Below, piece by piece: positions 5,809 through 41,271 of a stretch of DNA of 64,000 nucleotides (within the stretch, counting starts at the first letter, position 1; each line of letters opens with the position of its first letter). Origin of the DNA: an uncultured Bacilli bacterium. GTDB taxonomy: Bacteria; Bacillota_I; Bacilli_A; RF39; UBA660. The stretch covers positions 4,098-68,097 of the forward strand of contig CANRDL010000004.1 of assembly GCA_947629405.1 (NCBI GenBank), in the 5' to 3' direction. The notes beneath the pieces were generated by a model. The model was not told the DNA's origin. It ran no database searches and saw nothing but the letters and a program-made list of their open reading frames with translations. Position numbers and translations under genes: made by a program.

Positions 5809-5818
5809 GGAGGTAATT

Positions 5819-7309
5819 ATGCAAAATAAAAGAGGCTTTGTTTTCGTGGAAACAATTGTCGTTATTTCTGTTGTATCAATTGCTTTAATTTCTTTATTTA
5901 CATTATTTTATAGTGTATATAATGAAGAACAAAAAAGGTTAAGTTTTGATAATGTAGAAGATTTATATGCTACTTATTTTGTAAAAAAATATTTAGAAGA
6001 AAATAACATAAATAGATGTTTTATTAATTATAATAGTGATGATTTATTTAAAGAAATTAATATGGATTTAAATAATACAGTCACATATACTATTGAGTTA
6101 AGACTTGATGGTCACTCTGGACCATTAACATTTGGGCCTAATAGTTTTTCAGATGGCTCAATTAAAACTGTTTCAATTGCTTATAATATGAATGCTCCAG
6201 TTTTAACATATACTGAGACAGGTAAAGATATTCAAATTTGTTCTTTAGGTACTTGTATTGATGGTAGTGATTCTGTAATGCTGCAATCTTCTTTTCAAAG
6301 GATAAAAAATGGAAACCATTATGATTATATTCAACCATTAACTTTTACCATAACTGTTTCTTCATCAGATAAATGTACTATTCTTCATGACAATGATAAA
6401 ACTAATGGTGAATCTTTTAATACAATGAAAGATAAATTTAATATAAAAAATTTATATCTTGTTACAGGAGATATAACTAATTTAAAATTAAATAAAGCAA
6501 AAAACTTATTAAGTGCTAATGTAATTGATTATATTAAAACCATGTCTAAAAATAGTTCTGGATATTATTTAGTTTCCGAATTTGAAAATAATAATGTAGC
6601 AAGTGTCAAACTAACAACAGATATTAGTAATACAACCGCATTCTCCATACTTTCTGCTAATGATAGTTTAATGAATGCTACTAATACTAATAATGACGGA
6701 ATAACATATGTTCATGGGAATAATCAAAATAATTATGTAAATTTTGCTAATAAATCTTGGCGAATATTAAGAATTAATGAAGATGGTAGTATAAGATTAA
6801 TTTTAGATAAAAAATTAAAACCAATAAAATATGATAAAATTGATGATGAATTAAATACTTTTTATAATAAGTTATCTTCATATAGTGACTATATAGTTTT
6901 ATCAAATTATTGTGAAGATAATTGTAATGATAATAAATGTAATAATATTACCACTAACAATTTTTCATTTGCATGTGATAATTTAGCTTATTATGGTCAA
7001 GCTTCATGGAATGAGATTATGTCTACTTCAAGTAGTTTAGGAAATATTAAAGGACAATCCAGATATCAAAGTTTTCTTTCAGACTTTAATGATAATTTTT
7101 GGATTGGAGCAAAATCAAATAAAGTACCATATTATGTTACACCAAGTTCTGATAACTCAGCTGGTATAAATTATTCTTATATTTATGGTCCCAATATTCC
7201 TATTAATAGTACAACTGCTTATATAAGACCGGTAATAAGTATTAAAGGTAGTGTGGTATTAACTGGTAATGGAAGTAGTAAAAATCCATATCAAATTAAA
7301 AAGGAATAA
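5819..7309 (+). CDS. Large type IV prepilin-type protein (class III signal G|FVFVE) with about 460-aa C-terminal domain
   Basis: 496 aa. MQNKRG|FVFVETIVVISVV is the canonical prepilin cleavage/methylation motif with Glu at +5. AAGGAGG RBS. Contains a Cys-rich segment (YCEDNCNDNKCNN...FACDN). Confidence 0.7.
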   Translation: MQNKRGFVFVETIVVISVVSIALISLFTLFYSVYNEEQKRLSFDNVEDLYATYFVKKYLEENNINRCFINYNSDDLFKEINMDLNNTVTYTIELRLDGHSGPLTFGPNSFSDGSIKTVSIAYNMNAPVLTYTETGKDIQICSLGTCIDGSDSVMLQSSFQRIKNGNHYDYIQPLTFTITVSSSDKCTILHDNDKTNGESFNTMKDKFNIKNLYLVTGDITNLKLNKAKNLLSANVIDYIKTMSKNSSGYYLVSEFENNNVASVKLTTDISNTTAFSILSANDSLMNATNTNNDGITYVHGNNQNNYVNFANKSWRILRINEDGSIRLILDKKLKPIKYDKIDDELNTFYNKLSSYSDYIVLSNYCEDNCNDNKCNNITTNNFSFACDNLAYYGQASWNEIMSTSSSLGNIKGQSRYQSFLSDFNDNFWIGAKSNKVPYYVTPSSDNSAGINYSYIYGPNIPINSTTAYIRPVISIKGSVVLTGNGSSKNPYQIKKE

Positions 7310-13428: not shown

Positions 13429-13482
13429 AATTAGCATAGAATATTTATTTAATTTTTGCTATAATTTAATTAGGTGATAAAA

Positions 13483-13881
13483 ATGTCTTTTAAAAGAAGT
13501 GAACTTAGAGAAAAAATAATGATAATTTTATATCAAATAGATATAAGAAGAAAAGAAAAATTAGATATTAAAATAGATGAAATAATTAAAGATAATATTG
13601 ATATTGATAATGAATTTGTCAAAGAAATAGTCTATGGAGTAGAAACTCATCGGAATGAAATAGATAGTCTTGCTAATAAATATTTAAAAGATTGGACTAT
13701 AGATCGTATTGATTTAACTGGAGCAGAAATTTTAAGAATTGCTCTTTATGAAATAAAATATACGGAAACCCCTGATATTGTAGTTATTAATGAAGCAATT
13801 GAACTGGCTAAAAAATACAGTGATGAAGCAATTTTTAAAATAATTAACGGGGTATTAGATAAGGTGATTAACAATGAATGA
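13483..13881 (+). CDS. nusB: Transcription antitermination factor NusB
   Basis: About 132 aa. NusB-like (RELREKIMIILYQ...INEAIELAKKY). nusB-xseA-xseB synteny. Extended -10 TGCTATAAT upstream. Confidence 0.88.
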   Translation: MSFKRSELREKIMIILYQIDIRRKEKLDIKIDEIIKDNIDIDNEFVKEIVYGVETHRNEIDSLANKYLKDWTIDRIDLTGAEILRIALYEIKYTETPDIVVINEAIELAKKYSDEAIFKIINGVLDKVINNE

Positions 13882-15067
13882 TAATTATCAAACAATAACT
13901 GAATTTACCAGAAAATTAAAGCTTAAGTTTGATAATGATTTAGAATTAAAATATGTTTTTTTAAAAGGTGAAATTTCTAATTTTAAAGCTCATAGCCGCG
14001 GTCACTATTATTTTTCTTTAAAAGATGATAATGCTAAGATAAATGCTATAATGTTTTCATTTCAAACTAGAAATATAAATTTTTTACCAAAAGATGGTAT
14101 GAAAGTATTTGTTGAAGGAAAAATCAGCGTATATGAAGCTTCGGGAAGTTATCAAATATATGTAGAAAAAATGTATGAAGATGGCGTAGGCGATTTATAT
14201 AAAAAATATGAAGAACTTAAGAAAAAATTAGCCAATTTAGGAGTTTTTGATGATAAATATAAGAAGCCTATTCCTAAATATCCAACCAACATTGGTGTAA
14301 TTACAGCTCCAACTGGTGCAGCGATAAGAGATATTTTAAGTACAATTAAAAGAAGATATAATATTTGTAATACTTATTTATTTCCTGCCCTTGTTCAAGG
14401 TGATGGGGCAAAAGAAAGTATTGTAAAACAAATTAAAAATGCTGAAAAAAATAATCTTGATGTAATAATATTAGGTCGAGGTGGAGGTTCAATTGAAGAT
14501 TTGTGGGCCTTTAATGAAGAAATTGTCGCAAGAGCAATTTTTGATTGTAAAATTCCTATAATAAGTGCAGTTGGTCATGAAGTTGATTTTACAATTGCTG
14601 ATTTTGTTGCTGATTTAAGAGCACCAACTCCAACGGGAGCGGCAGAAATGGCTGTACCTAATATTAATGATGTAAGATTTCATATTGAAACATTAGAAAA
14701 TATGTTAAATAAAAATATTTATAATTTATTTAAAAGTAAACAAGAAAAATTAGATTATATATTAAACTCATATATTTTAAAAAATCCTTTAAGTTTATAT
14801 GAAATAAAAGAACAGAAATTATCTGTGACTTTGGAAAATTTACAATTAAATATTAAAAATGTTTTAAAAAATAAAACTCATAATTTTGAATTATTAAATA
14901 GTAAATTGCAAATTTTAAATCCACTAGCTATATTAAATAAAGGTTACAGCGTAGTCTTTAAAGATGGTGAAATAATTAAGGATACTAAAAAAATTAAAAT
15001 AGGTGATGAAATTAAAATAAGATTTTCTAAAGGTAATTTAAAAGCAGAAGTAAAGGAGAAGGAATAA
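13874..15067 (+). CDS. xseA: Exodeoxyribonuclease VII large subunit
   Basis: 397 aa. OB-fold N-terminus (GEISNFKAHSRGHYYFSLKD), core GRGGGSIEDLWAFNEE, and AVGHEVDFTI. Confidence 0.95.
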   Translation: MNDNYQTITEFTRKLKLKFDNDLELKYVFLKGEISNFKAHSRGHYYFSLKDDNAKINAIMFSFQTRNINFLPKDGMKVFVEGKISVYEASGSYQIYVEKMYEDGVGDLYKKYEELKKKLANLGVFDDKYKKPIPKYPTNIGVITAPTGAAIRDILSTIKRRYNICNTYLFPALVQGDGAKESIVKQIKNAEKNNLDVIILGRGGGSIEDLWAFNEEIVARAIFDCKIPIISAVGHEVDFTIADFVADLRAPTPTGAAEMAVPNINDVRFHIETLENMLNKNIYNLFKSKQEKLDYILNSYILKNPLSLYEIKEQKLSVTLENLQLNIKNVLKNKTHNFELLNSKLQILNPLAILNKGYSVVFKDGEIIKDTKKIKIGDEIKIRFSKGNLKAEVKEKE

Positions 15068-15303
15068 TGGAAGAAAAAAAGATTAATTTTGAAACAAATT
15101 TAGAAGAATTGGAAAAAATTGTTAAAGAACTGGAAAATGGCGATGTATCAATCGACGATGCTATTGAAAAGTACACTAAGGCAATGAAACTTGCTAAAAG
15201 TTGTAGTGACAAATTAAATGAAGCCAATGAATCAGTAAGTAAAATCTTAAAAGAAGATGGTACTTTTGAAGATTTTCAAGAAATGGAAGAAAATGATAGA
15301 TAA
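15067..15303 (+). CDS. xseB: Exodeoxyribonuclease VII small subunit
   Basis: 78 aa. FETNLEELEKIVKELENGDVSIDDAIEKYTKAMKL is typical of XseB. Its start overlaps the xseA stop (TAATG). Confidence 0.9.
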   Translation: MEEKKINFETNLEELEKIVKELENGDVSIDDAIEKYTKAMKLAKSCSDKLNEANESVSKILKEDGTFEDFQEMEENDR

Positions 15304-15328
15304 TATGAAAAATATTATCTTTTTATTT
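15298..15328 (+). terminator. Rho-independent terminator of the nusB-xseAB unit
   Basis: AGATAATAT-gaaaa-ATATTATCT followed by TTTTATTT. Overlaps the xseB stop. Confidence 0.65.
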
Positions 15329-15359
15329 ACATAAAAAATTTAAAACTTTCCACAAAAAC

Positions 15360-15388
15360 TTGACTGGGGGGGGGACCTATTATATAAT
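15360..15388 (+). promoter_or_regulatory. Consensus sigma-A promoter with a G9 homopolymer in the spacer
   Basis: TTGACT (15360-15365), a 17-nt spacer whose first nine bases are G (15366-15374), then TATAAT (15383-15388). Lies 27 nt upstream of the ATG at 15415. Confidence 0.7.
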
Positions 15389-15414
15389 GCAACTAAGAAG
15401 GGAAGTAATAAAAA

Positions 15415-16623
15415 ATGGGATTTATTAAATCCTTTGGTGGAGCATTAGGTGGAACTTTTGCAGACCAATGGAAAGATTTTTATGCACCAAAACCTGGTGT
15501 ACCAGCAACTGCTGGATTATTTCCAGCTGTACCACAGGGTACTAATGCTGGAAGAGGTGAGAACACAAAAAGTTCTGAAAATATAATTACAAATGGAAGT
15601 AAAATTGTTGTACCAGAAGGAACAGCATTAATTACAATTCAAAATGGTCAAATTACAGGTTTAATTGCCGAACCAGGCGGATTTGAATTTAGATCTGATG
15701 ACCAAAATTCACAATCTATGTTTGCTGGTGATGGAATGTTTTCATCTACTCTAAAAACATCTTGGGAAAGATTTAAATTTGGTGGACAACCAGGGACTCA
15801 ACAATTAGCATTTTATGTAAATTTAAAAGAGATTCCTAATAATAAATTTGGTACACAATCGGAAATTTATTGGGATGATGCTTACTTTGGAACTCAAGTA
15901 GGAGCAGTTACTAGAGGTACATATACTTTAAAAATTGTAGATCCACTATTATTTGTTAAAAATTTTGTACCGGCAACTTATTTGCAACCTAATTCACCAG
16001 TATTTGATTTTGCGGATATGGATAATGATGCAGGTAATCAATTATTTAACGAAGTAGTTGGTACTTTATCAGCAGCTTTTTCCAATTACACAAATGATCC
16101 TAGTAAAGGAAATCGTATTTCAAAAATTCAAGGAGATCAAATTGGTTTTGCTCAAGCAATGGCTCAAGCTGTCGAAGATGCTTATCACTGGAAAACAGAA
16201 CGTGGTTTAGAAATTGTAAAAACTGCAATTTTATCTATTGAATATGATGAAGATACTAAAGAATTAATGAAAGATGTTAAAAAGGCAGATGCATTATCAG
16301 GAGCAAGAGGTAATGCTTTTATGCAACAAGCTGCTGCAAGAGGTATGCAAGCTGCTGGAGAAAATGGTGGAGGAGCTAGTATGGCTTTCATGGGAATGGG
16401 CATGAATGCTGCTAATGGAATGATGGGAGCAACCCAACAACAACCAACTCAATCATCATATCAACCTGGATTTGGGCAAACGCAACAACCCGCTGCTCAA
16501 ACCCAAAATTCTAATGAACAAGACCCAATGACAATTTTAAGCGAAAAGAAAAAATTATTAGATGCTGGTCTAATCACTCAAGAAGATTATGATAAATTAA
16601 AAAATCAATTATTGGGAATTTAA
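15415..16623 (+). CDS. SPFH-related 'virion core protein'-type (COG4260/YdjI-like) protein with A/G/M/Q-rich linker and C-terminal SHOCT domain
   Basis: 402 aa. Core resembles the YdjI-type SPFH family (GSKIVVPEGTALITIQNGQI...FYVNLKEIPNNKFGT...GTYTLKIVDPLLF). C-terminal LSEKKKLLDAGLITQEDYDKLKNQLL is a SHOCT motif. GAAGGGAAG RBS. Confidence 0.65.
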   Translation: MGFIKSFGGALGGTFADQWKDFYAPKPGVPATAGLFPAVPQGTNAGRGENTKSSENIITNGSKIVVPEGTALITIQNGQITGLIAEPGGFEFRSDDQNSQSMFAGDGMFSSTLKTSWERFKFGGQPGTQQLAFYVNLKEIPNNKFGTQSEIYWDDAYFGTQVGAVTRGTYTLKIVDPLLFVKNFVPATYLQPNSPVFDFADMDNDAGNQLFNEVVGTLSAAFSNYTNDPSKGNRISKIQGDQIGFAQAMAQAVEDAYHWKTERGLEIVKTAILSIEYDEDTKELMKDVKKADALSGARGNAFMQQAAARGMQAAGENGGGASMAFMGMGMNAANGMMGATQQQPTQSSYQPGFGQTQQPAAQTQNSNEQDPMTILSEKKKLLDAGLITQEDYDKLKNQLLGI

Positions 16624-16626
16624 TTT

Positions 16627-18135
16627 ATGCAAAATAGTTATAGTGAAAATATAGTTCCTACAAATAACAATAATAACCAATCTAATGCCTCTACTATCAT
16701 TAAAACTGATTTAGGCGCTAAGGATGGTCAAAATAAATGTCCAAAATGTGGTTCTACGGATATATCTTTAAATGTTAATAATGGAAAATTAAGGTGCAAT
16801 TTTTGTAGACATGAATTTGAACCAGAAAAATTAGATAACATGCAACAAGATTTGAGTCAGTTACAAGGACAAGTGATGGGCTCTGGAGCTACTGATATTG
16901 TTGCTGATACTAAAGATATCGTGACTTTTAAATGTAGTAGTTGTGGGGCTGAAATAGTAATTGATACTGCTTCATCTACTCAAGCCAGATGTCATTGGTG
17001 TCGAAATATATTATCAGTAAATCAACAAATTTCAAATGGAAGTATACCTGATGTTGTATTACCATTTGGTATATCTAAAGATGAAGCTAAAATTGAAATT
17101 GAAAAATTTGTTGGTAAAAGAAAATTTTTTGCTCATCCTAAATTTAAACAAGAATTTACAACAGATAATATAATGGGTGTATATTTACCTTACATGATAA
17201 TTGATGCAAATGCTCATGTTAATCTCGTTGGAAATGGAGAACATTTAACAAGAACATATTATCGTGGCAGTGGAGAAAATAGAAGCACTTATTATGATGC
17301 TGATCTTTATCATGTAGAAAGAGAATTTGATTTAATAATCCAAGGTCTAACGGTTGAATCAAGTACAGAAAAATTAAATAATTCATCAGCAAATGCAACA
17401 AATAATGTTATTAATGCCATAATGCCATTTGATTTAGAAAATTGTGTTAAATTTAATGCAAATTATTTGAAAGGTTATACTTCAGAAAAGCGTGATATAA
17501 ATATTGACCAGTTAAGGCCTTTAGTAGATAAACAATCTAAAGATATAGCAAAATTTGCAGCTAACAATACTTTAAAACAATATGATCGTGGAGTTGCTTG
17601 GCATAATGAACAGCTTGATGTAAAAGGACAACAATGGAAAGCGGCATATTTACCAGTTTGGCTATATAGCTATTTACAAGTAAGTGGCGAAAAGAAAGTA
17701 TTACATTATGTTGCCGTAAATGCAAGAACTAAAGAAACAATGGGAAGTGTACCTATACATATTCCAAAATTATTAGGTATTTCCTTCTTAGTGGAAATTT
17801 TAGGGATTATAGCAATGTTATTTATAGATTTTGATTATAATTGGGCTTTTTTACTTGCAGGATTTATCTACTTCTTTGTAATGTTTACTCGTTATCGTAA
17901 TTCAAATGCCAGACATAAATATGAAACAGAGACAAAAACTAATTTAACTAATTTACGAAAAATTGATAATTTTATTAAAACGGAAACAGGATTAACAAAT
18001 TCGAGAATAAATGGAGCAAATAATACTTCGATAAGTGGTCAAGGATTAGGTAGTCAAATATTAAACTCATTTGTAGATCAAAATCCAGTTGCTAATTTAA
18101 TTAAAGATAGCACAAATCAGAAAGGAGAAAAATAA
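16627..18135 (+). CDS. YdjG-like TFIIB-type double zinc-ribbon protein with C-terminal TM hairpin
   Basis: 502 aa. Two ribbons (CPKCGS...CNFCRH and CSSCGA...CHWCRN), a globular domain of about 250 aa, two adjacent TM helices (ISFLVEILGIIAMLFIDFDYNWAFLLAGFIYFFVMF), and a polar tail. Confidence 0.6.
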   Translation: MQNSYSENIVPTNNNNNQSNASTIIKTDLGAKDGQNKCPKCGSTDISLNVNNGKLRCNFCRHEFEPEKLDNMQQDLSQLQGQVMGSGATDIVADTKDIVTFKCSSCGAEIVIDTASSTQARCHWCRNILSVNQQISNGSIPDVVLPFGISKDEAKIEIEKFVGKRKFFAHPKFKQEFTTDNIMGVYLPYMIIDANAHVNLVGNGEHLTRTYYRGSGENRSTYYDADLYHVEREFDLIIQGLTVESSTEKLNNSSANATNNVINAIMPFDLENCVKFNANYLKGYTSEKRDINIDQLRPLVDKQSKDIAKFAANNTLKQYDRGVAWHNEQLDVKGQQWKAAYLPVWLYSYLQVSGEKKVLHYVAVNARTKETMGSVPIHIPKLLGISFLVEILGIIAMLFIDFDYNWAFLLAGFIYFFVMFTRYRNSNARHKYETETKTNLTNLRKIDNFIKTETGLTNSRINGANNTSISGQGLGSQILNSFVDQNPVANLIKDSTNQKGEK

Positions 18136-19007
18136 TGAATTGTTCAAATTGTGGTACATATAACAATCCTCAATCAAAAGTTTGTATTAAATGTGGTAAT
18201 ATTTTAAATGCTGATAATCTAAATCAACCAACTGAATTAGATAAAAATATTAATTCACAACTAAATTATCAACAACTACCCCAAAATCAAATGCAACAAC
18301 CAATAAATCAGCAACCAATAAATAATGTACAAACAGTTCAATCTGCTAATGTCAGTACATCACCTTTAAATTATCTTAAATATTTAATTACTATATTACT
18401 CAAGCCATTTCAATGTTATAAGGAGGAAGAGAGTAAACTGAATAATGGAAAAAACTCTATTATACTAACATTGATTATTACGGTAATTATGACATTATTA
18501 AATTTGATTCAAACGATTATATCTACTGTAAGAGTAGTAAATTATAGTTGGACAGAAAAAAATACTTATACATGGCAATGGGACAATTTAAAAAACATAA
18601 ATTGGTTAGAAGTTATTGGTAAAAACTTTTTAATTTATATTTGTATTATTTTAGCTATTACTATTGTTTTCTATTTAGGAAGTTTAGTAGTAAAAAAACA
18701 ATTAAGTTTTATTAAATCATTATCTATATCAGCAACTTCTGTTATTCCAGCAGTATGGGGTACAATGATTTTATCACCAATATTTGGAATGATTTGGGAT
18801 AAATTAAGTTTTGTATTTATGATTATTGGTTTTATATATTCTTTAATAATATTATATGAATTTATAAATAGTGAATTAAATTTAGAAAGGGACAAAAAAA
18901 TATATTTTAATCTTATTTGCTTCGGGATACTTATTATTGCTGGATATTATGCTTATATGAAACTATTTATGAGCGGATTAGATAGTATTTTAGGATTACT
19001 TAAATAA
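18135..19007 (+). CDS. N-terminal zinc-ribbon, Q-rich linker, polytopic (Yip1-like?) membrane protein
   Basis: 290 aa. MNCSNCGT...CIKCGN ribbon, Q/N/P-rich linker, then about 5 TM helices. Its start overlaps the upstream stop (TAATG). AAAGGAGAA RBS. Confidence 0.6.
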   Translation: MNCSNCGTYNNPQSKVCIKCGNILNADNLNQPTELDKNINSQLNYQQLPQNQMQQPINQQPINNVQTVQSANVSTSPLNYLKYLITILLKPFQCYKEEESKLNNGKNSIILTLIITVIMTLLNLIQTIISTVRVVNYSWTEKNTYTWQWDNLKNINWLEVIGKNFLIYICIILAITIVFYLGSLVVKKQLSFIKSLSISATSVIPAVWGTMILSPIFGMIWDKLSFVFMIIGFIYSLIILYEFINSELNLERDKKIYFNLICFGILIIAGYYAYMKLFMSGLDSILGLLK

Positions 19008-19008
19008 T

Positions 19009-20511
19009 ATGAATAATAATTATAATAATTTAAATCAAAATAATATGAATTTGAACTATAATAATACAAATATTAATGATAATAATCAAAATATTATTTC
19101 TTCAAATAATGATTTTTCTAATGATAATAACAAATCAAAAAGAAAAAAATTACTTGTTGTTGGTATTTTATTAGTATTAGCAATAGTTTTATTTATAGGA
19201 AGTATATTTTTGAAAAGCAAAAATGCCAATATAAAAAAATCGGAAAATGTAAATCTTATATTTGATGAAGAAGCTTTAATAAAAGTAAAAAAAGATAATA
19301 AATATGGATATATAGATACAAATGGGAAATTTGTTTTAGATCCAATTTATAAAGAGGCTAAAGACTTTTATGGAAATTATACTATTGTAGAAACAAAAGA
19401 TGAAATATATCAGGTAATCGATAAAAAAGGCAAGGCTAAATTTCAAAGTAAATATGCTGCTGATATTGATTATAACTCTGAAAATAACATTTGGATACTT
19501 AATCATCAACTGTATGATAGTGCTTTAAATAAAATATCTCCCGACAATATTAATGTTCGTTATGGAAATTATGAATATTTAAAATGGGAAGATGTAAATG
19601 AGAAGTCTGCCGGAATAATTAATTCTTCTGGGAAGATTACTTATACTTATAAATATCAAAATGATGAAAATTATTTTGATATGACTCCATCAAAAATTAC
19701 TTCAATTTTAGATGAACAATATTGTATTGTAAATGTGGATAGTGGAAAATATGAAAAATATGGAATTGTAAATTGTGCTACTGGAAAATTGGTATATGAT
19801 TATTCAAAATATTATATATCAGATCGTGGTGATAATATATTTAAAATTACTAATGAAGATTCCCAGGACTCTGTATCTTTAATTTATATTAAAGATAATA
19901 AAATTGCATATCAAACTAATAGTGAAAGTGATACTTATGAGTATGATATTCTTACAAAATATATACAAATTTTTAATGAAGATAAAAATGATTATTTTTA
20001 TTTAGATATTCAAACAGGCAAAATTTTATCGGATGCTCCTAATGATGATATTAATGATGAGTGGGAAGTTTTAACTGGCATTACTAAAAAAGGTTGCGGT
20101 GAATCTTATGGTCTTGTAAAGGGAAAAAAGAAAATATTATCTTGTGAATGGGATAGTATTGATTATTTTGGAAATTTATTATATCAGTATTTAGCATCTA
20201 AGGGTAAAAAATATGTTATGACTACAAAAGATGATAAAAGCTTTATAATTAATTTAACAAATGGAGAAACGGTAGCAAAGTTTAATGCTAATAAGATTTA
20301 TAATAATGAAGAAAGTATATTTGTTTTTTATGAAGATTCTTCTATAAATAAAAAGGTTATTTATAATCTTATTACTGGAAAAACAATGGAAACTGATATT
20401 GATAATAATGTAAGACTTAACTCAAATTATATAACTATTTATGAAAACAATAAAATTAATTTCTATAATACAAATTTTAAATTAATATATTCAGCGGAGG
20501 ATGTAATATGA
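19009..20511 (+). CDS. Membrane-anchored WG-repeat (KWG-type beta-propeller-like) protein with Asn-rich N-terminus
   Basis: 500 aa. N-rich cytoplasmic head, one TM (LLVVGILLVLAIVLFIGSIFL), and repeated units of the type KYGYIDTNGKFVLDPIYKEAKDF, KYGIVNCATGKLVYDY and SYGLVKGKKKILSCEWDSIDYF. Confidence 0.6.
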   Translation: MNNNYNNLNQNNMNLNYNNTNINDNNQNIISSNNDFSNDNNKSKRKKLLVVGILLVLAIVLFIGSIFLKSKNANIKKSENVNLIFDEEALIKVKKDNKYGYIDTNGKFVLDPIYKEAKDFYGNYTIVETKDEIYQVIDKKGKAKFQSKYAADIDYNSENNIWILNHQLYDSALNKISPDNINVRYGNYEYLKWEDVNEKSAGIINSSGKITYTYKYQNDENYFDMTPSKITSILDEQYCIVNVDSGKYEKYGIVNCATGKLVYDYSKYYISDRGDNIFKITNEDSQDSVSLIYIKDNKIAYQTNSESDTYEYDILTKYIQIFNEDKNDYFYLDIQTGKILSDAPNDDINDEWEVLTGITKKGCGESYGLVKGKKKILSCEWDSIDYFGNLLYQYLASKGKKYVMTTKDDKSFIINLTNGETVAKFNANKIYNNEESIFVFYEDSSINKKVIYNLITGKTMETDIDNNVRLNSNYITIYENNKINFYNTNFKLIYSAEDVI

Positions 20512-21128
20512 ATTATATAAGAAATAAAAGAGTATTAGCTCTAACAGGAATAATAACTCTTATTTTAGGAACAATACTACCATATTTTACTTTTTCTCTT
20601 CTTGGTTATTCTCAATCAATATCTTTATGGAAATATTGGGAAGGAAAGTTAATTATAATTTTAACATTGGTAAATGCTTTATTTATATTTAAAGATTATA
20701 TTGAAAAATATCTACCACAATTATTTACAACAAATCTTGGAAAAAAAATAGCAAATTTATCAAATCCTAAAGTATCTTTAATACCAACAATATTAGTTGT
20801 AGGATTTGTTATTTACTTAAATATAAAATTTGATTTTAATACTGAATATTTAAAAAATGGTCTTGGTTTTTATTTACTATGGTTAGGCATTATATGTTTA
20901 GTGATACATGCTATTATATATAAAAAGCCATCTGAAGCATTAGATAATGTTAATCATGAATATAATAATCAAAATGTTAATGTACAACAAAATTTTCAAC
21001 AATCAGTACAATCACAAACGCAACAATTAACTCAAAATGAATTAGTAAACAAAAAATTATGTCCAAAATGTGGTAACCAAGTAGATGAAACAGCAACCCA
21101 ATGTTTTATGTGTGGAAATAAATTTTAA
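20508..21128 (+). CDS. Polytopic membrane protein with Q-rich linker and C-terminal zinc-ribbon
   Basis: 206 aa. Four or more TM helices, then NQNVNVQQNFQQSVQSQTQQLTQ, then CPKCGN...CFMCGN. Overlaps the upstream gene by 4 nt (ATGA). GGAGGA RBS. Confidence 0.6.
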   Translation: MNYIRNKRVLALTGIITLILGTILPYFTFSLLGYSQSISLWKYWEGKLIIILTLVNALFIFKDYIEKYLPQLFTTNLGKKIANLSNPKVSLIPTILVVGFVIYLNIKFDFNTEYLKNGLGFYLLWLGIICLVIHAIIYKKPSEALDNVNHEYNNQNVNVQQNFQQSVQSQTQQLTQNELVNKKLCPKCGNQVDETATQCFMCGNKF

Positions 21129-21170
21129 TATTAAATAGGAATATTCTTCCAATTATAGATTTTAAATTGA

Positions 21171-21202
21171 AAAAAGACAACCAATAATTGTCTTTTTTTT
21201 TG
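21171..21202 (+). terminator. Rho-independent terminator of the SPFH/zinc-ribbon operon
   Basis: AAAAAGACAA-ccaataa-TTGTCTTTTT followed by a T-run. Confidence 0.7.
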
Positions 21203-21237
21203 GCCTTTTTTTGCGCATAATAATAATGGTGGTCTGT

Positions 21238-22215
21238 ATGAATATAAAAAAATATATATGTTTATTATTGGTAATATTTTCCGCATTTTTTTCTTGTGGA
21301 TTTTCCAATTATGTTATCCCAGGTGGTGAAAATTTAGGTATTGAAATATCAACTGATGGTATTATGATTATTGGCTTTTATAAAGTTAATGGAAAGTTAA
21401 ATAAAGGAACTCCAGCTTTAAAAGTAGGAGATGTTATTACTAAAGTGGAAGATACAAATGTAGATAATATAGATAATTTAATAAAATTAATGGAAGAAAA
21501 AAAACAAAATGATACAGTAAATCTTACTATTAAAAGAAATAATAAATATAAAAAAATAAATTTAGAATTAAAAAAAGAAGATAATATATATAAAACAGGA
21601 TTATTTGTAAAAGATAGTATTACTGGTATAGGAACTCTTACCTATATTGATCCAAAAACTCATAAATTTGGGGCTTTAGGTCATGAAATTATTGAAAGTA
21701 ATTCTAATAAAAAAATTGAAGTTAAAACAGGCTTTATATTTAAAAGTTCGATTACTAGTATTGATCGTTCCTCAACCGGTGTGGCTGGAGGTAAAAAAGC
21801 AAAATTTTATTATGATTTTGAGTATGGAACAATAAATAAAAATACTAAATATGGAATTTATGGAACATACGAAAAAAATCTTCCTGAAAAGCAGGAAATG
21901 CAAGTAGCTAAAAATGATGAAGTAAAATTAGGAAATGCTAAAATTTACACAGTATTAAATGATGAAAAAGTTGAAGCATTTGATATTAATATTAATAAAA
22001 TAGATAAAAATCATGATATTAAAAATATTTACTTTAATATTACTTCAAAAGAATTATTAGTAAAAACTGGGGGAGTAGTTCAAGGTATGAGTGGTAGTCC
22101 AATCATTCAAGATGATAAGATTGTAGGAGCAGTTACCCATGTAATTGTCGATGATCCTAAAACTGGCTATGGAATATTTATTACCAGTATGTTAAAAGAA
22201 GGCGAGAAAAACTAA
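21238..22215 (+). CDS. spoIVB: SpoIVB peptidase (S55 sporulation signalling protease)
   Basis: Signal/TM, PDZ (LKVGDVITKVEDTNVDNIDNL), catalytic His (GALGHEI) and Ser (GMSGSPI). The ATG at 21238 has a GGTGG RBS; the track ORF starts at a TTG at 21211. Confidence 0.85.
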   Translation: MNIKKYICLLLVIFSAFFSCGFSNYVIPGGENLGIEISTDGIMIIGFYKVNGKLNKGTPALKVGDVITKVEDTNVDNIDNLIKLMEEKKQNDTVNLTIKRNNKYKKINLELKKEDNIYKTGLFVKDSITGIGTLTYIDPKTHKFGALGHEIIESNSNKKIEVKTGFIFKSSITSIDRSSTGVAGGKKAKFYYDFEYGTINKNTKYGIYGTYEKNLPEKQEMQVAKNDEVKLGNAKIYTVLNDEKVEAFDININKIDKNHDIKNIYFNITSKELLVKTGGVVQGMSGSPIIQDDKIVGAVTHVIVDDPKTGYGIFITSMLKEGEKN

Positions 22216-22273
22216 AAAGTAATGATAATTCATTACTTTTTTGATATACTTTAAGTAGCAAGAAGGGATAATT

Positions 22274-24034
22274 ATGTTCAAAGAAAAATTAAAATTAATT
22301 CCGCATTTACCAGGATCTTATCAAATGAAAAATAAAGAAGGAATTATTATTTATGTTGGTAAAGCCAAAGATTTACATAATAGAGTTAAAAGTTATTTTA
22401 CGGGTCGAGTTACAGGAAAAACTAAAGTTATGGTAAGTGAAATAGCTGATTTTGAATATATAATTACTAAAAGTGAATTAGAAGCATTTATTTTAGAAAT
22501 TAATTTAATAAAAAAATATGATCCTAAATATAATATATTACTTCGCGATGATAAAACTTATCCCTATATAGAACTTATAAAAAAACCATACCCTAAATTA
22601 AAAATTTCTCGATATAAAAAAATTAAAAATAAAAAAGATTCATATATTTTTGGTCCTTATCAAAATGCCTTTGCAGCCAGAAAAGTAGTCAAATTATTAA
22701 ATAGACTTTATCCTTTAAAAAAATGTAGTGGCAATCCTAAGAATTTATGTCTTTATTATCACATTGGTGAGTGTTTAGGATATTGTGAGAAAAAAATCGA
22801 TGAGGAAATTATCAATAAAATGCTTGAAGAAATTGCCGCTTTTTTAAAAGGTAATCAACAAGAAATAGAAGAAAAAATTATGAGTAAAATAAAGAAGTAT
22901 AGTGATGATTTAAATTATGAAGCAGCTAATGAATTATATGAAGAATTAAAATCTATAAAAATAATATTAGAAAATCAAAAATGTGAAATTAGAGATTTAA
23001 AAAATAGAGATATAATTAATTATTATTTTAATAATGGTTATTTAAGTATTCAAATTTTCTTTTTAAGAAATGGTAAAATTGTCGGATCTCATAATGATTT
23101 ATTACCGGTTATAAATGATGATATTGAAGATATTGAAAGTTATATTGTATCTTTTTATGATAAACATGAAATTCCCTCAGAAATCTTAGTTCCTGCCAAT
23201 TTTAATATTGATCTTTTAAAAAATATCCTTTCTACTAATATCTATCATCCTCAAAAAGGAGTAAAAAGAGATTTAATAAATATGGTTTATGATAATGCTA
23301 AGATAAATTATGAAAATAAAATAAAACTAATTTTAGCCAAAGATCAAAAAAATAATGATGCTTTGAATGAATTGAAAAAGATTTTAAATATGGATATTAT
23401 TGATACGATTGAAATATTTGATAATTCTACAATTTTTGGTAATTTTAATGTTTCGGGAATGGTAGTTTTTAAAAATGGTGTTCCTTATAAAAATGGTTAT
23501 CGCAAATTTAAACTTATGGAAGAATTTAAAAGTGATTATGATATGATGAAAGAAGTAATATATAGAAGATATTATCGACTTTTAATTGAACAAAAACCAC
23601 TTCCTAATTTAATTATTGTTGATGGGGGAATTATTCAAATTAATGCGGCTTGTGAAGTTTTAAAAAGTTTAAATTTAAATATTAAAGTTATTGGTCTAAA
23701 GAAAAATGATAAACATAAAACAAGTGAATTACTTGATAGTGATGGTCACATTATTAATATTGATCCGCATAGTAATTTATTTCATTTATTAACTTTTATG
23801 CAAGATGAAGTTCATAATTTCACCATTTCTTATCATAGACAAATTAGATCTAAAGGTTCAATTGCTAGTATTTTAGATGAAGTACCAGGAATAGGTAATG
23901 TAAGAAAAAAAGAATTAATTAAGAAATTTAAAAATATCAATAATTTAAAAAATGCGGAAATATCTGAAATAGCAAAAATAGTTCCTGAAAATATAGCTTT
24001 GAATTTAAAAAAATATTTGGAAAATCGAAAATAG
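22274..24034 (+). CDS. uvrC: Excinuclease ABC subunit C
   Basis: 586 aa. GIY-YIG N-terminus (PGSYQMKNKEGIIIYVGKAKDLHNRVKSYF), a UVR domain, and an endonuclease V-like plus (HhH)2 C-terminus. Confidence 0.95.
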   Translation: MFKEKLKLIPHLPGSYQMKNKEGIIIYVGKAKDLHNRVKSYFTGRVTGKTKVMVSEIADFEYIITKSELEAFILEINLIKKYDPKYNILLRDDKTYPYIELIKKPYPKLKISRYKKIKNKKDSYIFGPYQNAFAARKVVKLLNRLYPLKKCSGNPKNLCLYYHIGECLGYCEKKIDEEIINKMLEEIAAFLKGNQQEIEEKIMSKIKKYSDDLNYEAANELYEELKSIKIILENQKCEIRDLKNRDIINYYFNNGYLSIQIFFLRNGKIVGSHNDLLPVINDDIEDIESYIVSFYDKHEIPSEILVPANFNIDLLKNILSTNIYHPQKGVKRDLINMVYDNAKINYENKIKLILAKDQKNNDALNELKKILNMDIIDTIEIFDNSTIFGNFNVSGMVVFKNGVPYKNGYRKFKLMEEFKSDYDMMKEVIYRRYYRLLIEQKPLPNLIIVDGGIIQINAACEVLKSLNLNIKVIGLKKNDKHKTSELLDSDGHIINIDPHSNLFHLLTFMQDEVHNFTISYHRQIRSKGSIASILDEVPGIGNVRKKELIKKFKNINNLKNAEISEIAKIVPENIALNLKKYLENRK

Positions 24035-27952: not shown

Positions 27953-29056
27953 ATGAAAGAACTAAAAGAATTAAAAACATTAGAAGAAAGAAAAGAAGAA
28001 TTAATAAAACTTGGTAAAGAAAAAGGTTATATTACATTTGAACAACTAGCTGAAGCTCTAAAAGGTTTAGAATTAGATAATGATGATTTAGACGATCTAT
28101 ATAATTCCTTTGTAGAAGCCGGAATTGAAGTTATAACTGAGGAATCTTCAGAAGATGATTCTGAACATGGTGGCGAGAAAAAAGAAGAAACAATATTAGA
28201 TGAAGAAGAACTAACTAAGGATGTAAATATTGATGATCCGGTTAGGATGTATCTTAAAGAAATTGGTAGAATTTCTCTTTTATCAACAGAAGAAGAGTTA
28301 GAATTATCTAAAAAAGTTGCTGAAGGCGATGAATTAGCTAAGAATCAACTTGCGGAGTCAAATTTAAGATTAGTTGTATCGATAGCTAAAAGATATGTTG
28401 GTAGAGGATTATTATTTTTAGATTTAATCCAAGAAGGAAATATTGGCTTAATGAAAGCCGTTGAAAAATTTGATTATGATAAAGGATATAAATTTTCTAC
28501 TTATGCAACATGGTGGATAAGACAAGCAATAACAAGAGCATTGGCTGATCAAGCAAGAACAATCAGGGTTCCAGTTCACATGGTTGAAACAATTAATAAA
28601 ATGGCCCGTATTCAAAGACAATTAACTTTGGAATTAAACCGTGAACCAAGTGAAGAAGAAATTGCAAAAAAGATGGGAATAACTGTGGAAAAAGTTAGAG
28701 AAGTTATTAAAATTTCCCAAGAGCCAGTATCACTTGAAACACCAATTGGTGAAGAAGACGATTCCCATTTAGGTGATTTTGTTCCTGATGCAACTAATAT
28801 GGGACCAGAAGAATATGCTACTAATGAAATATTAAAAGAAGAAATTAAAGCTGTACTTGATACTTTACAAGAAAGAGAAAAAGAAGTTTTAGAGCTTAGA
28901 TTTGGACTTATTGATGGAACTAATCATACTTTAGAAGAAGTTGGAAAAAGATTTAATGTAACAAGAGAAAGAATTCGTCAAATAGAGGCTAAAGCATTAA
29001 GAAAATTGCGTCATCCATCTCGTGCTAAAAAATTAAAGGACTTTTTAAGTGATTAG
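27953..29056 (+). CDS. sigA: RNA polymerase primary sigma factor (SigA/RpoD)
   Basis: 367 aa. Regions 1.2-4.2 are conserved: [61 protein letters not shown]. Confidence 0.97.
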
Positions 29057-37785: not shown

Positions 37786-38541
37786 ATGGCCAAAGAAGGA
37801 AAAATTGTTTGTGTAACATCAGCTAAAGGAGGGGTAGGTAAAACTATATTTTCTATTAATTTAGCTGGAGTTTTAGAAACATTAAATAAAAAAGTATTAA
37901 TTTTAGATTTAGATTTAGCTGGGGGTGGAATAGCCCTTGCTTTGTCATGCGAATATAAAAAAGATTTATATAATATTTATGAAGATTTAAACAACAATAA
38001 ATTTAGTGACATAAAAAAATATATTACTAAGTATGATAACAAAATTGATTTTATTGCAGCTCCTAAAGATCCGCGTAATGCCAAAAAAATAGATGGTAGG
38101 TATCTAAAATTTATTTTTGATAATTTATCATACTTATATGATGCCATTATTGTTGATACTAATCACTTTTTAACTGATGCAACATTAGTTACTTTAGATC
38201 TTGCTGATAATATATTTTTTATGATGACAAATGATCCATTTGATGTTAAAAATATGAAATCTCTATTAAGTATTTTTAGAGAACTTGATAAAGATAATTA
38301 TAAAATTATTTTAAATGACGCTATTGATCATTGTAAAAATTATTTTTCATTTTATGATCTTCGAAGCATAATAAAAAGTAATATAGATTATACTTTATCT
38401 CCTGCATCATATGTTAAAAACATCGATACCTTAGTTTTAAATGGCAAAATTGTAACTTTAGATAAAGTTTATAAAGCATCTCGCGATTATGGTGTATATT
38501 TGAAAATAGCGACAAATATTTTTGAAAAAGAGGAGGAATAA
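37786..38541 (+). CDS. MinD/ParA-superfamily ATPase, TadZ/CpaE-like (no receiver domain)
   Basis: 251 aa. Deviant Walker A VTSAKGGVGKT and Walker B-like IIVDTN. First gene of the Tad-like cluster. Confidence 0.7.
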   Translation: MAKEGKIVCVTSAKGGVGKTIFSINLAGVLETLNKKVLILDLDLAGGGIALALSCEYKKDLYNIYEDLNNNKFSDIKKYITKYDNKIDFIAAPKDPRNAKKIDGRYLKFIFDNLSYLYDAIIVDTNHFLTDATLVTLDLADNIFFMMTNDPFDVKNMKSLLSIFRELDKDNYKIILNDAIDHCKNYFSFYDLRSIIKSNIDYTLSPASYVKNIDTLVLNGKIVTLDKVYKASRDYGVYLKIATNIFEKEEE

Positions 38542-38544
38542 AAA

Positions 38545-39765: not shown

Positions 39766-39795
39766 AATAAGTTAATAAAAAGAAAGGAGAAATCT

Positions 39796-41236: not shown

Positions 41237-41271
41237 AATATGTTACAATAGTTATAGAAAGGTCTAATATT

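What the first reader, a model, noticed from the sequence alone, without database searches (positions are those of the whole stretch)
15360..15388. G9 homopolymer fills the spacer of a consensus promoter: candidate slipped-strand phase switch
The sequence reads TTGACT (15360-15365), then 17 nt, then TATAAT (15383-15388). The first nine spacer bases are G (15366-15374). This is the longest G/C homopolymer I can find in the 64 kb. It looks out of place in such AT-rich DNA and is not needed for coding. The promoter sits just after the xseB terminator and 27 nt before the first gene of the SPFH/zinc-ribbon operon. Homopolymer tracts in -35/-10 spacers are an established phase- or rheostat-variation mechanism, known from Neisseria, Haemophilus and Mycoplasma surface genes. 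Gain or loss of one G would shift the spacer to 18 or 16 nt and change promoter strength. That would make the downstream five-gene operon a contingency locus.
Basis: partly seen in the sequence, partly recalled or inferred. Interest (0 to 1): 0.72.

Follow-up and report, generated by a model that had tools for sequence, protein, structure and literature searches.

The report
Poly-G tract inside a promoter spacer
A run of nine Gs sits between the two recognition boxes of the promoter of a membrane-stress operon in an uncultured gut bacterium; the layout matches a known mutational on/off dial, but no change in G number was seen at this locus.

Summary
TTGACT (15360-15365), a 17-nt spacer and TATAAT (15383-15388) are present. 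The spacer starts with G9 (15366-15374), the only G/C run of 6 or more in this 24% GC window (about 0.01 expected).

The site lies between the xseB terminator and the ribosome-binding site of a five-gene SPFH/zinc-ribbon/Yip1/WG-repeat operon.

New context:
- The G9 promoter is a derived, strain-specific cassette of about 80-110 nt. It replaced an ordinary TGnTATAAT promoter plus a stem-loop leader that conspecific strains and 80 related species still carry.
- The operon itself is accessory: strains have it absent, as 2 genes or as 5 genes.
- G9 is identical in all four independent assemblies, which represent three haplotypes. No length variation was seen, but the test has low power.
- In about 1 Mb of relatives, long G tracts lie almost only just after a TTGACA box. 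They give spacers of 15-20 nt ahead of secreted or surface protein genes.
- In a more distant low-GC lineage, orthologous pilin-like promoters differ by G7 vs G10 and G8 vs G10.

Verdict: a real promoter with a slippage-prone spacer and a plausible expression dial (about 0.55). This is a new member of a known kind (porA, tp0126, vlp). Switching at this locus is unproven.

The parts
15067..15303 (+). xseB (exonuclease VII small subunit), the upstream gene
   Evidence: Pfam Exonuc_VII_S, E = 2.5e-19
15270..15293 (+). Left copy of a 24-nt imperfect direct repeat (AGATTTTCAAGAAATGGAAGAAAA). It marks the left edge of the accessory insert.
   Evidence: The empty-site contig L102 aligns to 13460-15293 and to 21157-22768, with a 24-nt overlap
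15298..15328 (+). Intrinsic terminator after xseB (GATAATAT-GAAAA-ATATTATC followed by TTTTTATTT)
   Evidence: RNA fold -9.8 kcal/mol, z = -3.61. The stem is all A-T, so the G+C-based scan missed it.
15334..15414 (+). Strain-specific promoter cassette ('allele A'). It replaces the ancestral extended -10 promoter and stem-loop leader. The allele-specific stretch runs a little way into the coding sequence, to about 15440-15510.
   Evidence: Identical in the window, L001, L003 and L006. Absent from L004, L005 and L007, which have the same xseB. Also absent from L009 and L094, whose homology to the window starts at 15410.
15360..15365 (+). -35 box TTGACT (5/6 match)
15366..15374 (+). G9 homopolymer, the first 9 nt of the 17-nt spacer
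   Evidence: It is the only G/C run of 6 or more in 64 kb.
15375..15382 (+). Remainder of the spacer (ACCTATTA). There is no TG extended -10 motif.
15383..15388 (+). -10 box TATAAT (6/6 match)
15395..15405 (+). Inferred transcription start (about 15394-15396) and purine-rich ribosome-binding site AAGAAGGGAAG. The leader would be only about 20 nt.
   Evidence: Inferred from the sequence. A possible hairpin between the ribosome-binding site and the early coding sequence folds at -9.0 kcal/mol, z = -2.3. The start site has not been mapped.
15415..16623 (+). Gene 1: SPFH/Band_7_1 protein with a C-terminal SHOCT motif (YdjI-like)
   Evidence: Pfam PF13421, 36.4 bits against a cutoff of 24. 7958 homologues.
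16627..18135 (+). Gene 2: 502-aa zinc-ribbon protein
   Evidence: Weak zinc-ribbon hits below the Pfam cutoff. It always follows the SPFH gene in relatives.
18135..19007 (+). Gene 3: Yip1-domain membrane protein
   Evidence: Pfam PF04893, 35.5 bits against a cutoff of 28.6
19009..20511 (+). Gene 4: WG-repeat protein
   Evidence: Pfam PF14903
20508..21128 (+). Gene 5: protein with a C-terminal zinc ribbon
   Evidence: Pfam Zn_Ribbon_1 and NCBIfam HVO_0416, both weak
21157..21201 (+). Right copy of the direct repeat (21157-21180), followed by a terminator (GACAA-CCAATAA-TTGTC plus T9). In the empty-site strain this is the xseB 3' end and its terminator.
27953..29056 (+). sigA/rpoD, the housekeeping sigma factor expected to read a TTGACA/TATAAT promoter
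   Evidence: Pfam sigma-70 regions 1.1-4. NCBIfam RpoD equivalog, 571.7 bits.

Best explanation
The site is the sigma-A promoter of the five-gene SPFH operon in this strain. Its 17-nt spacer is half filled by a G9 tract.

The promoter arrived as a short cassette. The cassette replaced the ancestral extended -10 promoter and its 5' stem-loop leader.

At G9 the boxes are at the optimal 17-nt spacing, so the operon is predicted to be strongly expressed. Replication slippage in the tract would give G8 or G10, which means 16- or 18-nt spacers, and further steps beyond that. Each step misaligns the -35 and -10 boxes. There is no TG extended -10 motif to compensate. Expression in those descendants would therefore drop, heritably and reversibly.

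Shown here:
- the sequence anatomy and its statistical oddity
- the derived, strain-specific nature of the cassette
- the specific placement of long G tracts just after -35 boxes in relatives
- length polymorphism of such tracts at orthologous promoters in a more distant low-GC lineage

Inferred:
- use of these hexamers and the position of the transcription start
- that slippage occurs at a useful rate in this organism
- that expression follows tract length
- that this variability is selected rather than incidental
For: A sigA gene is present in the window.

No other promoter candidate was seen in the 111-nt gap, and a terminator lies upstream.

Unbiased census of about 1 Mb of relatives:
- G runs number 116 x G5, 9 x G6, none of G7, and then G8-G10 only.
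- Apart from this allele there are four long tracts. Three of them (L045, L048, L056) lie 2-3 nt after TTGACA and ahead of a TAnAAT box.
- The chance of this is about 0.002 per tract.
- None of the 125 G5-G6 runs is placed this way.

Those three promoters have spacers of 15, 20 and 20 nt. They precede genes for N-terminally anchored or sortase-anchored proteins. A second G10 copy precedes a paralogue in the same MAG.

The metagenome scan found a type-IV-pilin-like gene family (PF07963). Its promoter cassette is TTGACA-AGT-G(7-11)-TGTATGC-TAAAAT, so only G7 gives a 17-nt spacer.

Two orthologous pairs differ in tract length:
- L137 (G7) vs L119 (G10), with flanks 99.2% identical over 1.5 kb
- L129 (G8) vs L120 (G10), with flanks 98.6% and 96.8% identical

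Two further same-flank cases are L125 (G9) vs L131 (G8), and one G7 copy among eight G8 copies.

Published precedent: T. pallidum tp0126 and N. meningitidis porA have poly-G between -35 and -10 with a 17-nt optimum. A T. pallidum population was about 81% G9 and 19% G8, so a consensus sequence can hide the variation (PMC7864442).
Against: The tract is G9 in every copy found: the window, L001, L003 and L006. These represent three distinguishable haplotypes from at least two studies. In the pilin-like family, by contrast, strains with 99% identical flanks differ by 3 Gs.

All four copies sit at the optimal length. A fixed promoter would look the same.

Other points against:
- Conspecific strains (L004, L005, L007) and 80 related species drive the operon from an ordinary promoter.
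- One strain lacks the operon altogether.
- The cargo is a YdjI-like membrane-stress module, not a surface antigen or a restriction-modification gene.
- There are no read-level data, no mapped transcription start and no expression data.
- The mismatch-repair status of the organism is unknown.
- The lineage with proven polymorphism is only distantly related (30-55% protein identity).
Confidence: 0.55

Rival explanations
1. This is a fixed strong promoter and the G tract is incidental. A recombination or promoter-capture event placed a consensus -35/-10 promoter in front of the operon. The G9 came along as filler or as a junction scar. Purifying selection or a low slippage rate holds it at the length that gives 17 nt. 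Its effect is constitutive high expression freed from the ancestral leader, not switching.
For: G9 is invariant in 4 assemblies representing 3 haplotypes, always at the optimal spacing. The cassette is derived and replaces a conserved stem-loop leader. That fits a change of regulation rather than a gain of a switch. In one JGI sample series the same G-tract promoter is G8 (17-nt spacer) in 8 of 9 contigs. The cargo is not typical of a contingency locus.
Against: A G9 tract is intrinsically slippage-prone, and any plus or minus 1 change alters a spacer that has no extended -10 back-up. Some heritable expression heterogeneity is therefore hard to avoid. Long G tracts in relatives are non-randomly placed just after -35 boxes, with off-optimal spacers of 15 and 20 nt. 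Orthologous tracts vary elsewhere. This is hard to explain if such tracts were neutral filler in 24-30% GC genomes that otherwise have no G7+ runs.
Confidence: 0.33
2. The G tract, with the adjoining -35 box, is a protein-binding or structural element, such as an operator for a regulator or a rigid A-form segment. Its length would be functionally fixed, and it would act through binding rather than mutation.
For: In the pilin-like family the -35 box lies inside a perfect palindrome, CCACTTG-A-CAAGTGG, whose right arm runs into the G tract. L056 has CCACTTG...CAAGTGG around its -35 box. L045, L100 and L056 share exactly the same layout: N3, G10, N7.
Against: The window's promoter has no such palindrome and no significant fold (z = -0.71). 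Tract lengths of 7-11 within one promoter family, including orthologues, argue against a length-specific binding site. No regulator gene is linked to the locus.
Confidence: 0.07
3. The feature is a chance occurrence or a sequencing or assembly artefact, for example a two-colour-chemistry poly-G or a chimeric join of paralogous SPFH loci.
For: A 98.7% identical operon exists at a second locus in the same samples (L094, L009), so a chimeric join was conceivable. Contig L002 ends at 15319, next to the junction.
Against: The same 81 nt with G9 appears internally in three other assemblies made by two pipelines, ENA/SPAdes and Logan. L001 spans xseA through the promoter into gene 2. L097 spans gene 4, gene 5 and spoIVB. 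The chance expectation for a G9 is 0.013 per window.
Confidence: 0.02

Closest known systems
Neisseria meningitidis porA promoter (poly-G between -35 and -10)
   Same: A G homopolymer fills the promoter spacer, so tract length sets the -35/-10 distance and hence transcription level. 17 nt is optimal (as summarised in PMC7864442).
   Different: porA is an outer-membrane porin of a Gram-negative pathogen, and its variation and expression effects have been demonstrated experimentally. Here the host is an uncultured sporulating low-GC gut bacterium, the cargo is a cytoplasmic-membrane SPFH operon, and no variation has been observed.
Treponema pallidum tp0126 and the tprE/G/J/L poly-G promoters
   Same: tp0126 has poly-G between -35 and -10 and is optimal when the spacing is 17 nt. 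Populations are dominated by one length (about 81% G9) with minority lengths, so consensus sequences look invariant (PMC7864442).
   Different: The host is a spirochaete, the cargo is outer-membrane proteins, and variation was shown by fragment-length analysis and GFP reporters. Nothing comparable was possible here.
Mycoplasma hyorhinis vlp genes (poly-A in the promoter spacer)
   Same: A homopolymer in the -35/-10 spacer precedes each member of a surface-protein gene family in a low-GC lineage (my own knowledge; reviewed in PMC10502178, listed but not read). NCBI places a named relative of the window organism, Candidatus Faecisoma, in Mycoplasmatota incertae sedis. The pilin-like and secreted-protein families found here resemble the vlp arrangement more than the window locus does.
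   Different: vlp uses poly-A rather than poly-G, in wall-less organisms, with lipoprotein cargo. The window locus is a single operon, not a gene family.
Bacillus subtilis pspA-ydjGHI (samGHI) operon
   Same: The cargo resembles it: a soluble SPFH protein (YdjI) encoded with membrane partner proteins and acting in envelope-stress handling (PMC8581546). Gene 1 carries the Band_7_1 SPFH domain.
   Different: The B. subtilis operon is sigma-W controlled and includes pspA. Here there is no pspA, the gene order differs, there are extra Yip1 and WG-repeat genes, and the promoter is of the sigma-A type. Homology to YdjI itself was not tested directly.

Membership tests
Repeat-mediated transcriptional phase variation, promoter-spacer type (porA / tp0126 / vlp class) | A homopolymer long enough to slip (about 7-8 or more for G/C) | tested here: met
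   G9 at 15366-15374
Repeat-mediated transcriptional phase variation, promoter-spacer type (porA / tp0126 / vlp class) | The tract lies between functional -35 and -10 boxes, so its length sets the spacing | tested here: met
   TTGACT, 17 nt (G9 plus 8), TATAAT, an 11/12 match at the right position between a terminator and a ribosome-binding site. Use of these boxes (the transcription start) is not testable with these tools.
Repeat-mediated transcriptional phase variation, promoter-spacer type (porA / tp0126 / vlp class) | Tract length is polymorphic within or between populations | tested here: inconclusive
   4 of 4 assemblies (3 haplotypes) have G9. Coverage is about 1.5-2.7x, only consensus is available, and there are no reads. 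Polymorphism was seen only at analogous promoters in other lineages.
Repeat-mediated transcriptional phase variation, promoter-spacer type (porA / tp0126 / vlp class) | Expression changes with tract length, reversibly and at high frequency | not testable with these tools
   This needs reporter fusions, RNA data and fluctuation assays.
Contingency locus (in the sense of Moxon) | The cargo acts at the host, phage or environment interface, where stochastic on/off switching pays (surface structures, restriction-modification, uptake). This is typical rather than strictly defining. | tested here: not met
   The cargo is SPFH/Band_7_1, zinc-ribbon, Yip1 and WG-repeat proteins. PADLOC assigns no defence system. 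A membrane-stress role is inferred from YdjI. Phage-related roles of Psp-type modules are not excluded.
Sigma-A (sigma-70 type) -35/-10 promoter | Near-consensus hexamers 16-18 nt apart, upstream of a gene, in an organism with a housekeeping sigma factor | tested here: met
   11/12 match with a 17-nt spacer. sigA is at 27953-29056. The same class of site precedes other genes in the window at 301, 12976, 32775, 37724 and 62589.
YdjI/SamI-type SPFH envelope-stress operon | A Band_7_1 SPFH protein encoded with membrane partners and with pspA | tested here: inconclusive
   The Band_7_1 domain is met (36.4 bits). Partner genes are present but are not demonstrably YdjG or YdjH. There is no pspA in the operon.

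The most novel reading that the evidence does not exclude
Poly-G spacer promoters may be a lineage-wide, portable regulatory module in uncultured low-GC gut Bacilli. Short cassettes of the form TTGAC(A/T), a G tract of 7-11 and a -10 box would be copied in front of genes by recombination. This would turn surface-protein families (pilin-like, sortase-anchored) into mutationally switched loci. In the window it would have turned an accessory membrane-stress operon into one by a promoter swap that also removed its native leader control. Some members would carry a second switch, a poly-A tract in codons 2-4. That would amount to a repeat-based phasome in commensal Firmicutes alongside the inverton-based one.
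Probability: 0.3. Interest if true: 0.7.

Novelty: new member of a known kind. Interest (0 to 1): 0.45.

Why it matters
Mutational switches based on simple repeats are textbook in a few pathogens: Neisseria, Haemophilus, Campylobacter, Treponema and Mycoplasma. My searches of the paper library turned up nothing on repeat-based switches in gut commensal Firmicutes. Their hits on phase variation in gut commensals concerned invertible promoters.

If the G tracts found here really slip, these small-genome gut Bacilli would run a repeat-based phasome. Consensus MAG sequences would hide it.

The window adds an unusual twist. A conserved stress operon appears to have swapped a regulated promoter and leader for a mutable constitutive one. 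This is a natural example of promoter capture changing the mode of control, and it can be tested directly with read pileups and reporter fusions.

If the tract turns out to be stable, the finding reduces to an odd but ordinary strong promoter.

Tried and rejected
- **Exact-protein look-up of the window's SPFH protein.** It is not on record.
- **JGI metagenome scan for the window's own promoter with any G length.** It gave 0 hits, so no extra copies could be obtained that way.
- **Look-up of L001's SPFH protein.** The third homologue search did not return that protein. The last look-up (P0006) found yet another genomic context with an ordinary promoter.
- **A paralogue inside the window.** ORFs 4600-7309 have similar sizes but show no similarity.
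- **Chimeric assembly of the window.** A near-identical operon lies at a dcd-linked locus, which suggested this. It was rejected because L001, L003 and L006 span the left junction and L097 spans the right one.
- **A SigB-type reading (GGGTAT as the -10 box).** No GTTTAA-like -35 box sits at the required distance, and the window's tract is followed by ACC.
- **pyrG-like reiterative transcription starting in the G tract.** There is no -10 box upstream of the tract.
- **An RNA element.** Rfam gave no hit in 13-23 kb at E <= 1, and the promoter region has no significant fold.
- **An anti-phage system.** PADLOC gave only one sub-threshold hit.
- **A scan of viral contigs for the architecture.** Only 8 hits appeared in 2.9 million contigs, and none is related to the window.
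- **The JGI G8 promoter group.** I first took it for a multi-copy promoter ahead of unrelated genes. On inspection it has about 100 nt of shared downstream sequence followed by divergence, and no tRNA genes. It may be a single locus sampled in a series of samples.

Full report
**1. The observation**

- TTGACT is at 15360-15365.
- The spacer is 17 nt. Its first nine bases are G (15366-15374) and the rest is ACCTATTA.
- TATAAT is at 15383-15388.
- The ATG of the next gene is at 15415.

The window is 24.1% GC. It contains eleven G5 runs, three C5 runs and this single G9, with nothing in between. The expected number of G9+ runs is 0.0015 under independent bases and 0.013 under a first-order Markov model.

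The hexamer pair scores 11/12 and is the best match in 13-22 kb. Such matches are not rare in this DNA: 13 sites in the window against 7.9 +/- 2.6 by chance. The promoter call therefore also rests on position. The site lies in a 111-nt gap between an A-T-rich hairpin plus U-tract that ends xseB (-9.8 kcal/mol, z = -3.6) and a purine-rich ribosome-binding site. Several of the other 11/12 sites on the + strand also sit directly upstream of ORFs. The window encodes a full-length housekeeping sigma factor.

**2. Genomic context**

The window is core chromosome of a sporulating, walled, low-GC Firmicute. Its genes include lon, spoIIP, lepA, nusB, xseA, xseB, spoIVB, uvrC, dnaG, sigA, murT/gatD, spoIIGA-sigE, obg, rpsB and tsf.

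The closest relatives are uncultured "Bacilli" MAGs from rabbit, mouse, chicken and human gut. One named relative, Candidatus Faecisoma, is filed by NCBI under Mycoplasmatota incertae sedis.

Downstream of the promoter are five tightly packed genes:
- an SPFH/Band_7_1 protein with a SHOCT tail
- a 502-aa zinc-ribbon protein
- a Yip1 membrane protein
- a WG-repeat protein
- a 206-aa zinc-ribbon protein

By analogy with B. subtilis YdjI, this is most likely a membrane-stress module (PMC8581546). This is an inference. There is no pspA here, and PADLOC does not recognise a defence system.

**3. The promoter is a recent, strain-specific cassette**

Seven metagenome contigs encode an xseB identical to the window's.
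- L001, L003 and L006 carry exactly the same intergenic sequence, with G9.
- L004, L005 and L007 diverge right after the xseB terminator (about 15334). They carry a longer, ordinary AT-rich region with a TGTTATAAT extended -10 promoter and a leader of about 65 nt.

The ordinary version is homologous to the intergenic region of the sister species L014, so it is the ancestral state.

Contigs L009 and L094 carry a 97-100% identical operon at a different locus, downstream of dcd, with a leader of about 330 nt. They match the window only from 15410 onward.

The G9 promoter therefore belongs to a cassette of about 80-110 nt, running from 15334 to somewhere between 15440 and 15510. It has no match elsewhere in the data I could reach.

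None of 80 homologous operons from other species has a G/C run of 7 or more upstream of the SPFH gene. Most have a TGnTAnAAT promoter followed by a stem-loop near the 5' end of the leader. The window's allele has lost that leader.

**4. The operon itself is accessory**

- Contig L102 (17x coverage) has xseB followed directly by spoIVB. It aligns to the window up to 15293 and again from 21157.
- The two junctions share a 24-nt imperfect direct repeat.
- L014 has a two-gene version and the window a five-gene version.
- Independent contigs confirm both junctions of the window's arrangement: L001, L003 and L006 on the left, L097 on the right. The window is therefore not a chimera.

**5. Does the tract vary at this locus?**

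No variation was seen. The tract is G9 in the window, L001, L003 and L006.
- L003 is identical to the window over its whole length.
- L001 has a 48-nt deletion in xseA and diverges to about 80-93% identity after about 15500.
- L006 comes from another study and differs in xseA (93-99% identity per 100 nt).

At least three haplotypes therefore share G9.

The test is weak. The contigs have 1.5-2.7x coverage, only consensus sequence is available, and G9 is the length selection would favour if expression is needed. Known poly-G switches can look invariant at consensus level. In a T. pallidum population the tract was about 81% G9 and 19% G8 (PMC7864442).

**6. Long G tracts in relatives are promoter-spacer elements**

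The roughly 1 Mb of loci fetched through SPFH, xseB or nusB homology is unbiased with respect to G tracts. In it the G runs number 116 x G5, 9 x G6 and none of G7, followed by a separate class of G8-G10.

Besides the window's allele there are four such tracts. Three of them follow a TTGACA box by 2-3 nt and precede a -10 box:
- L048: TTGACA-CC-G8-TATTA-TATAAT, spacer 15 nt
- L045: TTGACA-GAC-G10-TATATGG-TAGAAT, spacer 20 nt
- L056: TTGACA-AGT-G10-TGTATGC-TAGAAT, spacer 20 nt

TTGACW occurs at 4.2e-4 per nt. Adjacency within 0-4 nt is therefore expected for about 0.2% of tracts, and three of four has a probability of roughly 4e-8. None of the 125 G5-G6 runs is so placed.

The downstream genes encode N-terminally anchored proteins (L045, L048) and a 510-aa protein with a signal peptide and an NPKTG sorting signal (L056). 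The MAG that contains L045 has a second copy of the same G10 promoter ahead of a paralogue (L100).

**7. Such tracts do vary between strains elsewhere**

I scanned the metagenome collection for TTGACA-N3-G(6 or more)-TRTATGN-TANAAT and obtained 33 loci.

Fourteen sequences, counting L056, share the promoter cassette ...CCACTTGACAAGT-Gn-TGTATGCTAAAAT... In most of them it sits 28 nt upstream of genes beginning MKKKGFTLIELL, the prepilin N-terminal methylation motif (PF07963, 32.8 bits).

The tract lengths are G7 x2, G8 x1, G9 x3, G10 x6 and G11 x2. Only G7 gives a 17-nt spacer, so most copies would be off or low. That pattern is expected for a switched gene family.

Two pairs are clearly orthologous:
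- L137 (G7) vs L119 (G10), with 1.5 kb of upstream flank 99.2% identical
- L129 (G8) vs L120 (G10), with flanks 98.6% and 96.8% identical

Two further same-flank cases differ by one G: L125 (G9) vs L131 (G8), and one G7 copy among eight G8 copies.

These organisms are only distantly related to the window's (30-55% protein identity). L056, which shares 79% SPFH identity with the window, carries the same cassette type.

**8. Most likely mechanism, and rivals**

The most likely reading (about 0.55) is a sigma-A promoter whose strength depends on the length of a slippage-prone G tract.
- G9 gives the optimal 17-nt spacer.
- Each gain or loss of a G misaligns the boxes.
- There is no TG extended -10 motif to compensate.

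Cells with G8 or G10 would therefore express less of the SPFH operon, heritably and reversibly. The promoter swap also removed the ancestral leader, so the operon probably lost its native control.

Rivals:
- **A fixed strong promoter whose G tract is incidental (about 0.33).** It fits the invariance and the atypical cargo.
- **A protein-binding or structural role (about 0.07).** The palindrome CCACTTG-A-CAAGTGG around the -35 box of the pilin-like family suggests this, but the window has no such palindrome, and length variation argues against a length-specific site.
- **An artefact or chance (about 0.02).** This is excluded by the independent assemblies.

**9. Comparison with known systems, and novelty**

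The layout works like N. meningitidis porA and T. pallidum tp0126, which have poly-G between -35 and -10 with a 17-nt optimum (PMC7864442). It also resembles the Mycoplasma vlp poly-A spacers (my own knowledge).

Of the defining features of that class:
- Tract length is met.
- Tract position is met.
- Polymorphism at this locus is inconclusive.
- Length-dependent expression could not be tested.

I therefore rate it a new, candidate member of a known kind, in a lineage and ahead of a cargo where this had not been noted. My literature searches found no description for gut commensal Firmicutes.

Interest is moderate. The mechanism is textbook and unproven here. The clade-wide placement of G tracts, the promoter swap and the pilin-like family make a testable case for repeat-based phase variation in uncultured gut Bacilli.

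Noticed in passing
window 15270-15293 and 21157-21180; L102:1780-1960: The whole SPFH operon (about 15294-21156) is an accessory insert between xseB and spoIVB, flanked by 24-nt imperfect direct repeats. One strain (L102) has the empty site, the sister species L014 has a 2-gene version, and the window has 5 genes. The insert brings its own xseB C-terminus and terminator. No integrase is present.
   Followed up: partly
L094:640-5683; L009:1-3900: A 97-100% identical copy of the operon lies downstream of a dCTP deaminase gene, with a TGGTATAAT promoter and a leader of about 330 nt. It occurs in the same samples as the window's strain. Homology to the window begins 5 nt before the ATG (15410). 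This points to a recent exchange between two loci or two genomes.
   Followed up: partly
leaders of L010, L016, L032, L043, L063, L069, L073, L075, L087, L094, L148 and others, upstream of the SPFH start: SPFH-operon homologues in many species share an extended -10 promoter followed 5-8 nt later by a stem-loop near the 5' end. It is often GAATAGG...CCTATTC, with variants that keep the pairing (for example GTCATAGTA/TACTATGGC and ATAATGCA/TGCATTAT). This could be an mRNA stabiliser or a regulator site. Rfam was run only on the window, which lacks this leader. The element is missing from the window's allele.
   Followed up: partly
L116, L118-L120, L123, L124, L129, L130, L135, L137, L141, L143, L145 (metagenome contigs, including VOFC01001815.1 and ERZ1034882): A type-IV-pilin-like multigene family has a conserved promoter cassette whose -35 box sits in the palindrome CCACTTG-A-CAAGTGG, followed by G7-G11. 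Three copies on one 208-kb contig have G9, G7 and G7. Many contigs break within 100 nt of the cassette.
   Followed up: partly
L129 vs L120; L141: In the same pilin-like genes, a poly-A run in codons 2-4 is A7 in L129 and L141, which puts the prepilin frame out of register. It is A5 in the orthologue L120, which is in frame. A poly-T between the ribosome-binding site and the ATG varies from T7 to T10. This suggests a second, translational switch on top of the promoter tract.
   Followed up: partly
L045:11100-11950; L100:1440-1941 (both from MAG GCA_947626425.1): Two paralogous genes for N-terminally anchored proteins (92% identical over the 44% of the query that P0121 covers) each carry the same TTGACA-GAC-G10-TATATG promoter. 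Homologues of these proteins are rare and divergent (10 hits, mostly 32-47% identity).
   Followed up: partly
L121, L126, L128, L132, L133, L136, L139, L140 (JGI Ga0210xxx series); L125, L131, L138: A promoter TTGACA-CT-G8-TATATGC-TATAAT with about 60 nt of identical upstream and about 100 nt of identical downstream sequence recurs in a series of samples. After that the sequence diverges between contigs, and L128 shows a partial tandem repeat. No tRNA genes are present. It could be a leader next to a variable array or the end of a mobile element.
   Followed up: no
L110:214-300 (IMG/VR UViG 2617271329_000002): A viral or prophage contig of 30% GC has CCCCC-TTGACT-G10-ATTTGA-TAAAAT, the same TTGACT-plus-G-tract start as the window. 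The ORF that follows is interrupted by a stop codon.
   Followed up: no
window 37786-41826: A Tad / type IV pilus-like cluster (ParA/CpaE-like ATPase, T2SSE ATPase, T2SSF membrane protein) lies just upstream of spoIIGA-sigE. No prepilin motif was found anywhere in the window.
   Followed up: no
window 15395-15440: A predicted hairpin pairs the ribosome-binding-site purines (AAGGGA) with codons 6-8 of the SPFH gene (UCCUUU): -9.0 kcal/mol, z = -2.3. The pairing uses the TCC codon, which only the G9-promoter copies carry (window, L001); the other compared loci have GCA, GCT or TCA there.
   Followed up: no
L008 (ENA ERZ22666087 k127_1618365), protein P0001: A 623-aa protein from a 66% GC contig scores higher against the window's SPFH (893 bits) than 96%-identical proteins do. 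BLASTP identity is 61% to the related L001 SPFH; none was reported for the window's. It probably contains duplicated SPFH-like segments or reflects a scoring oddity.
   Followed up: no
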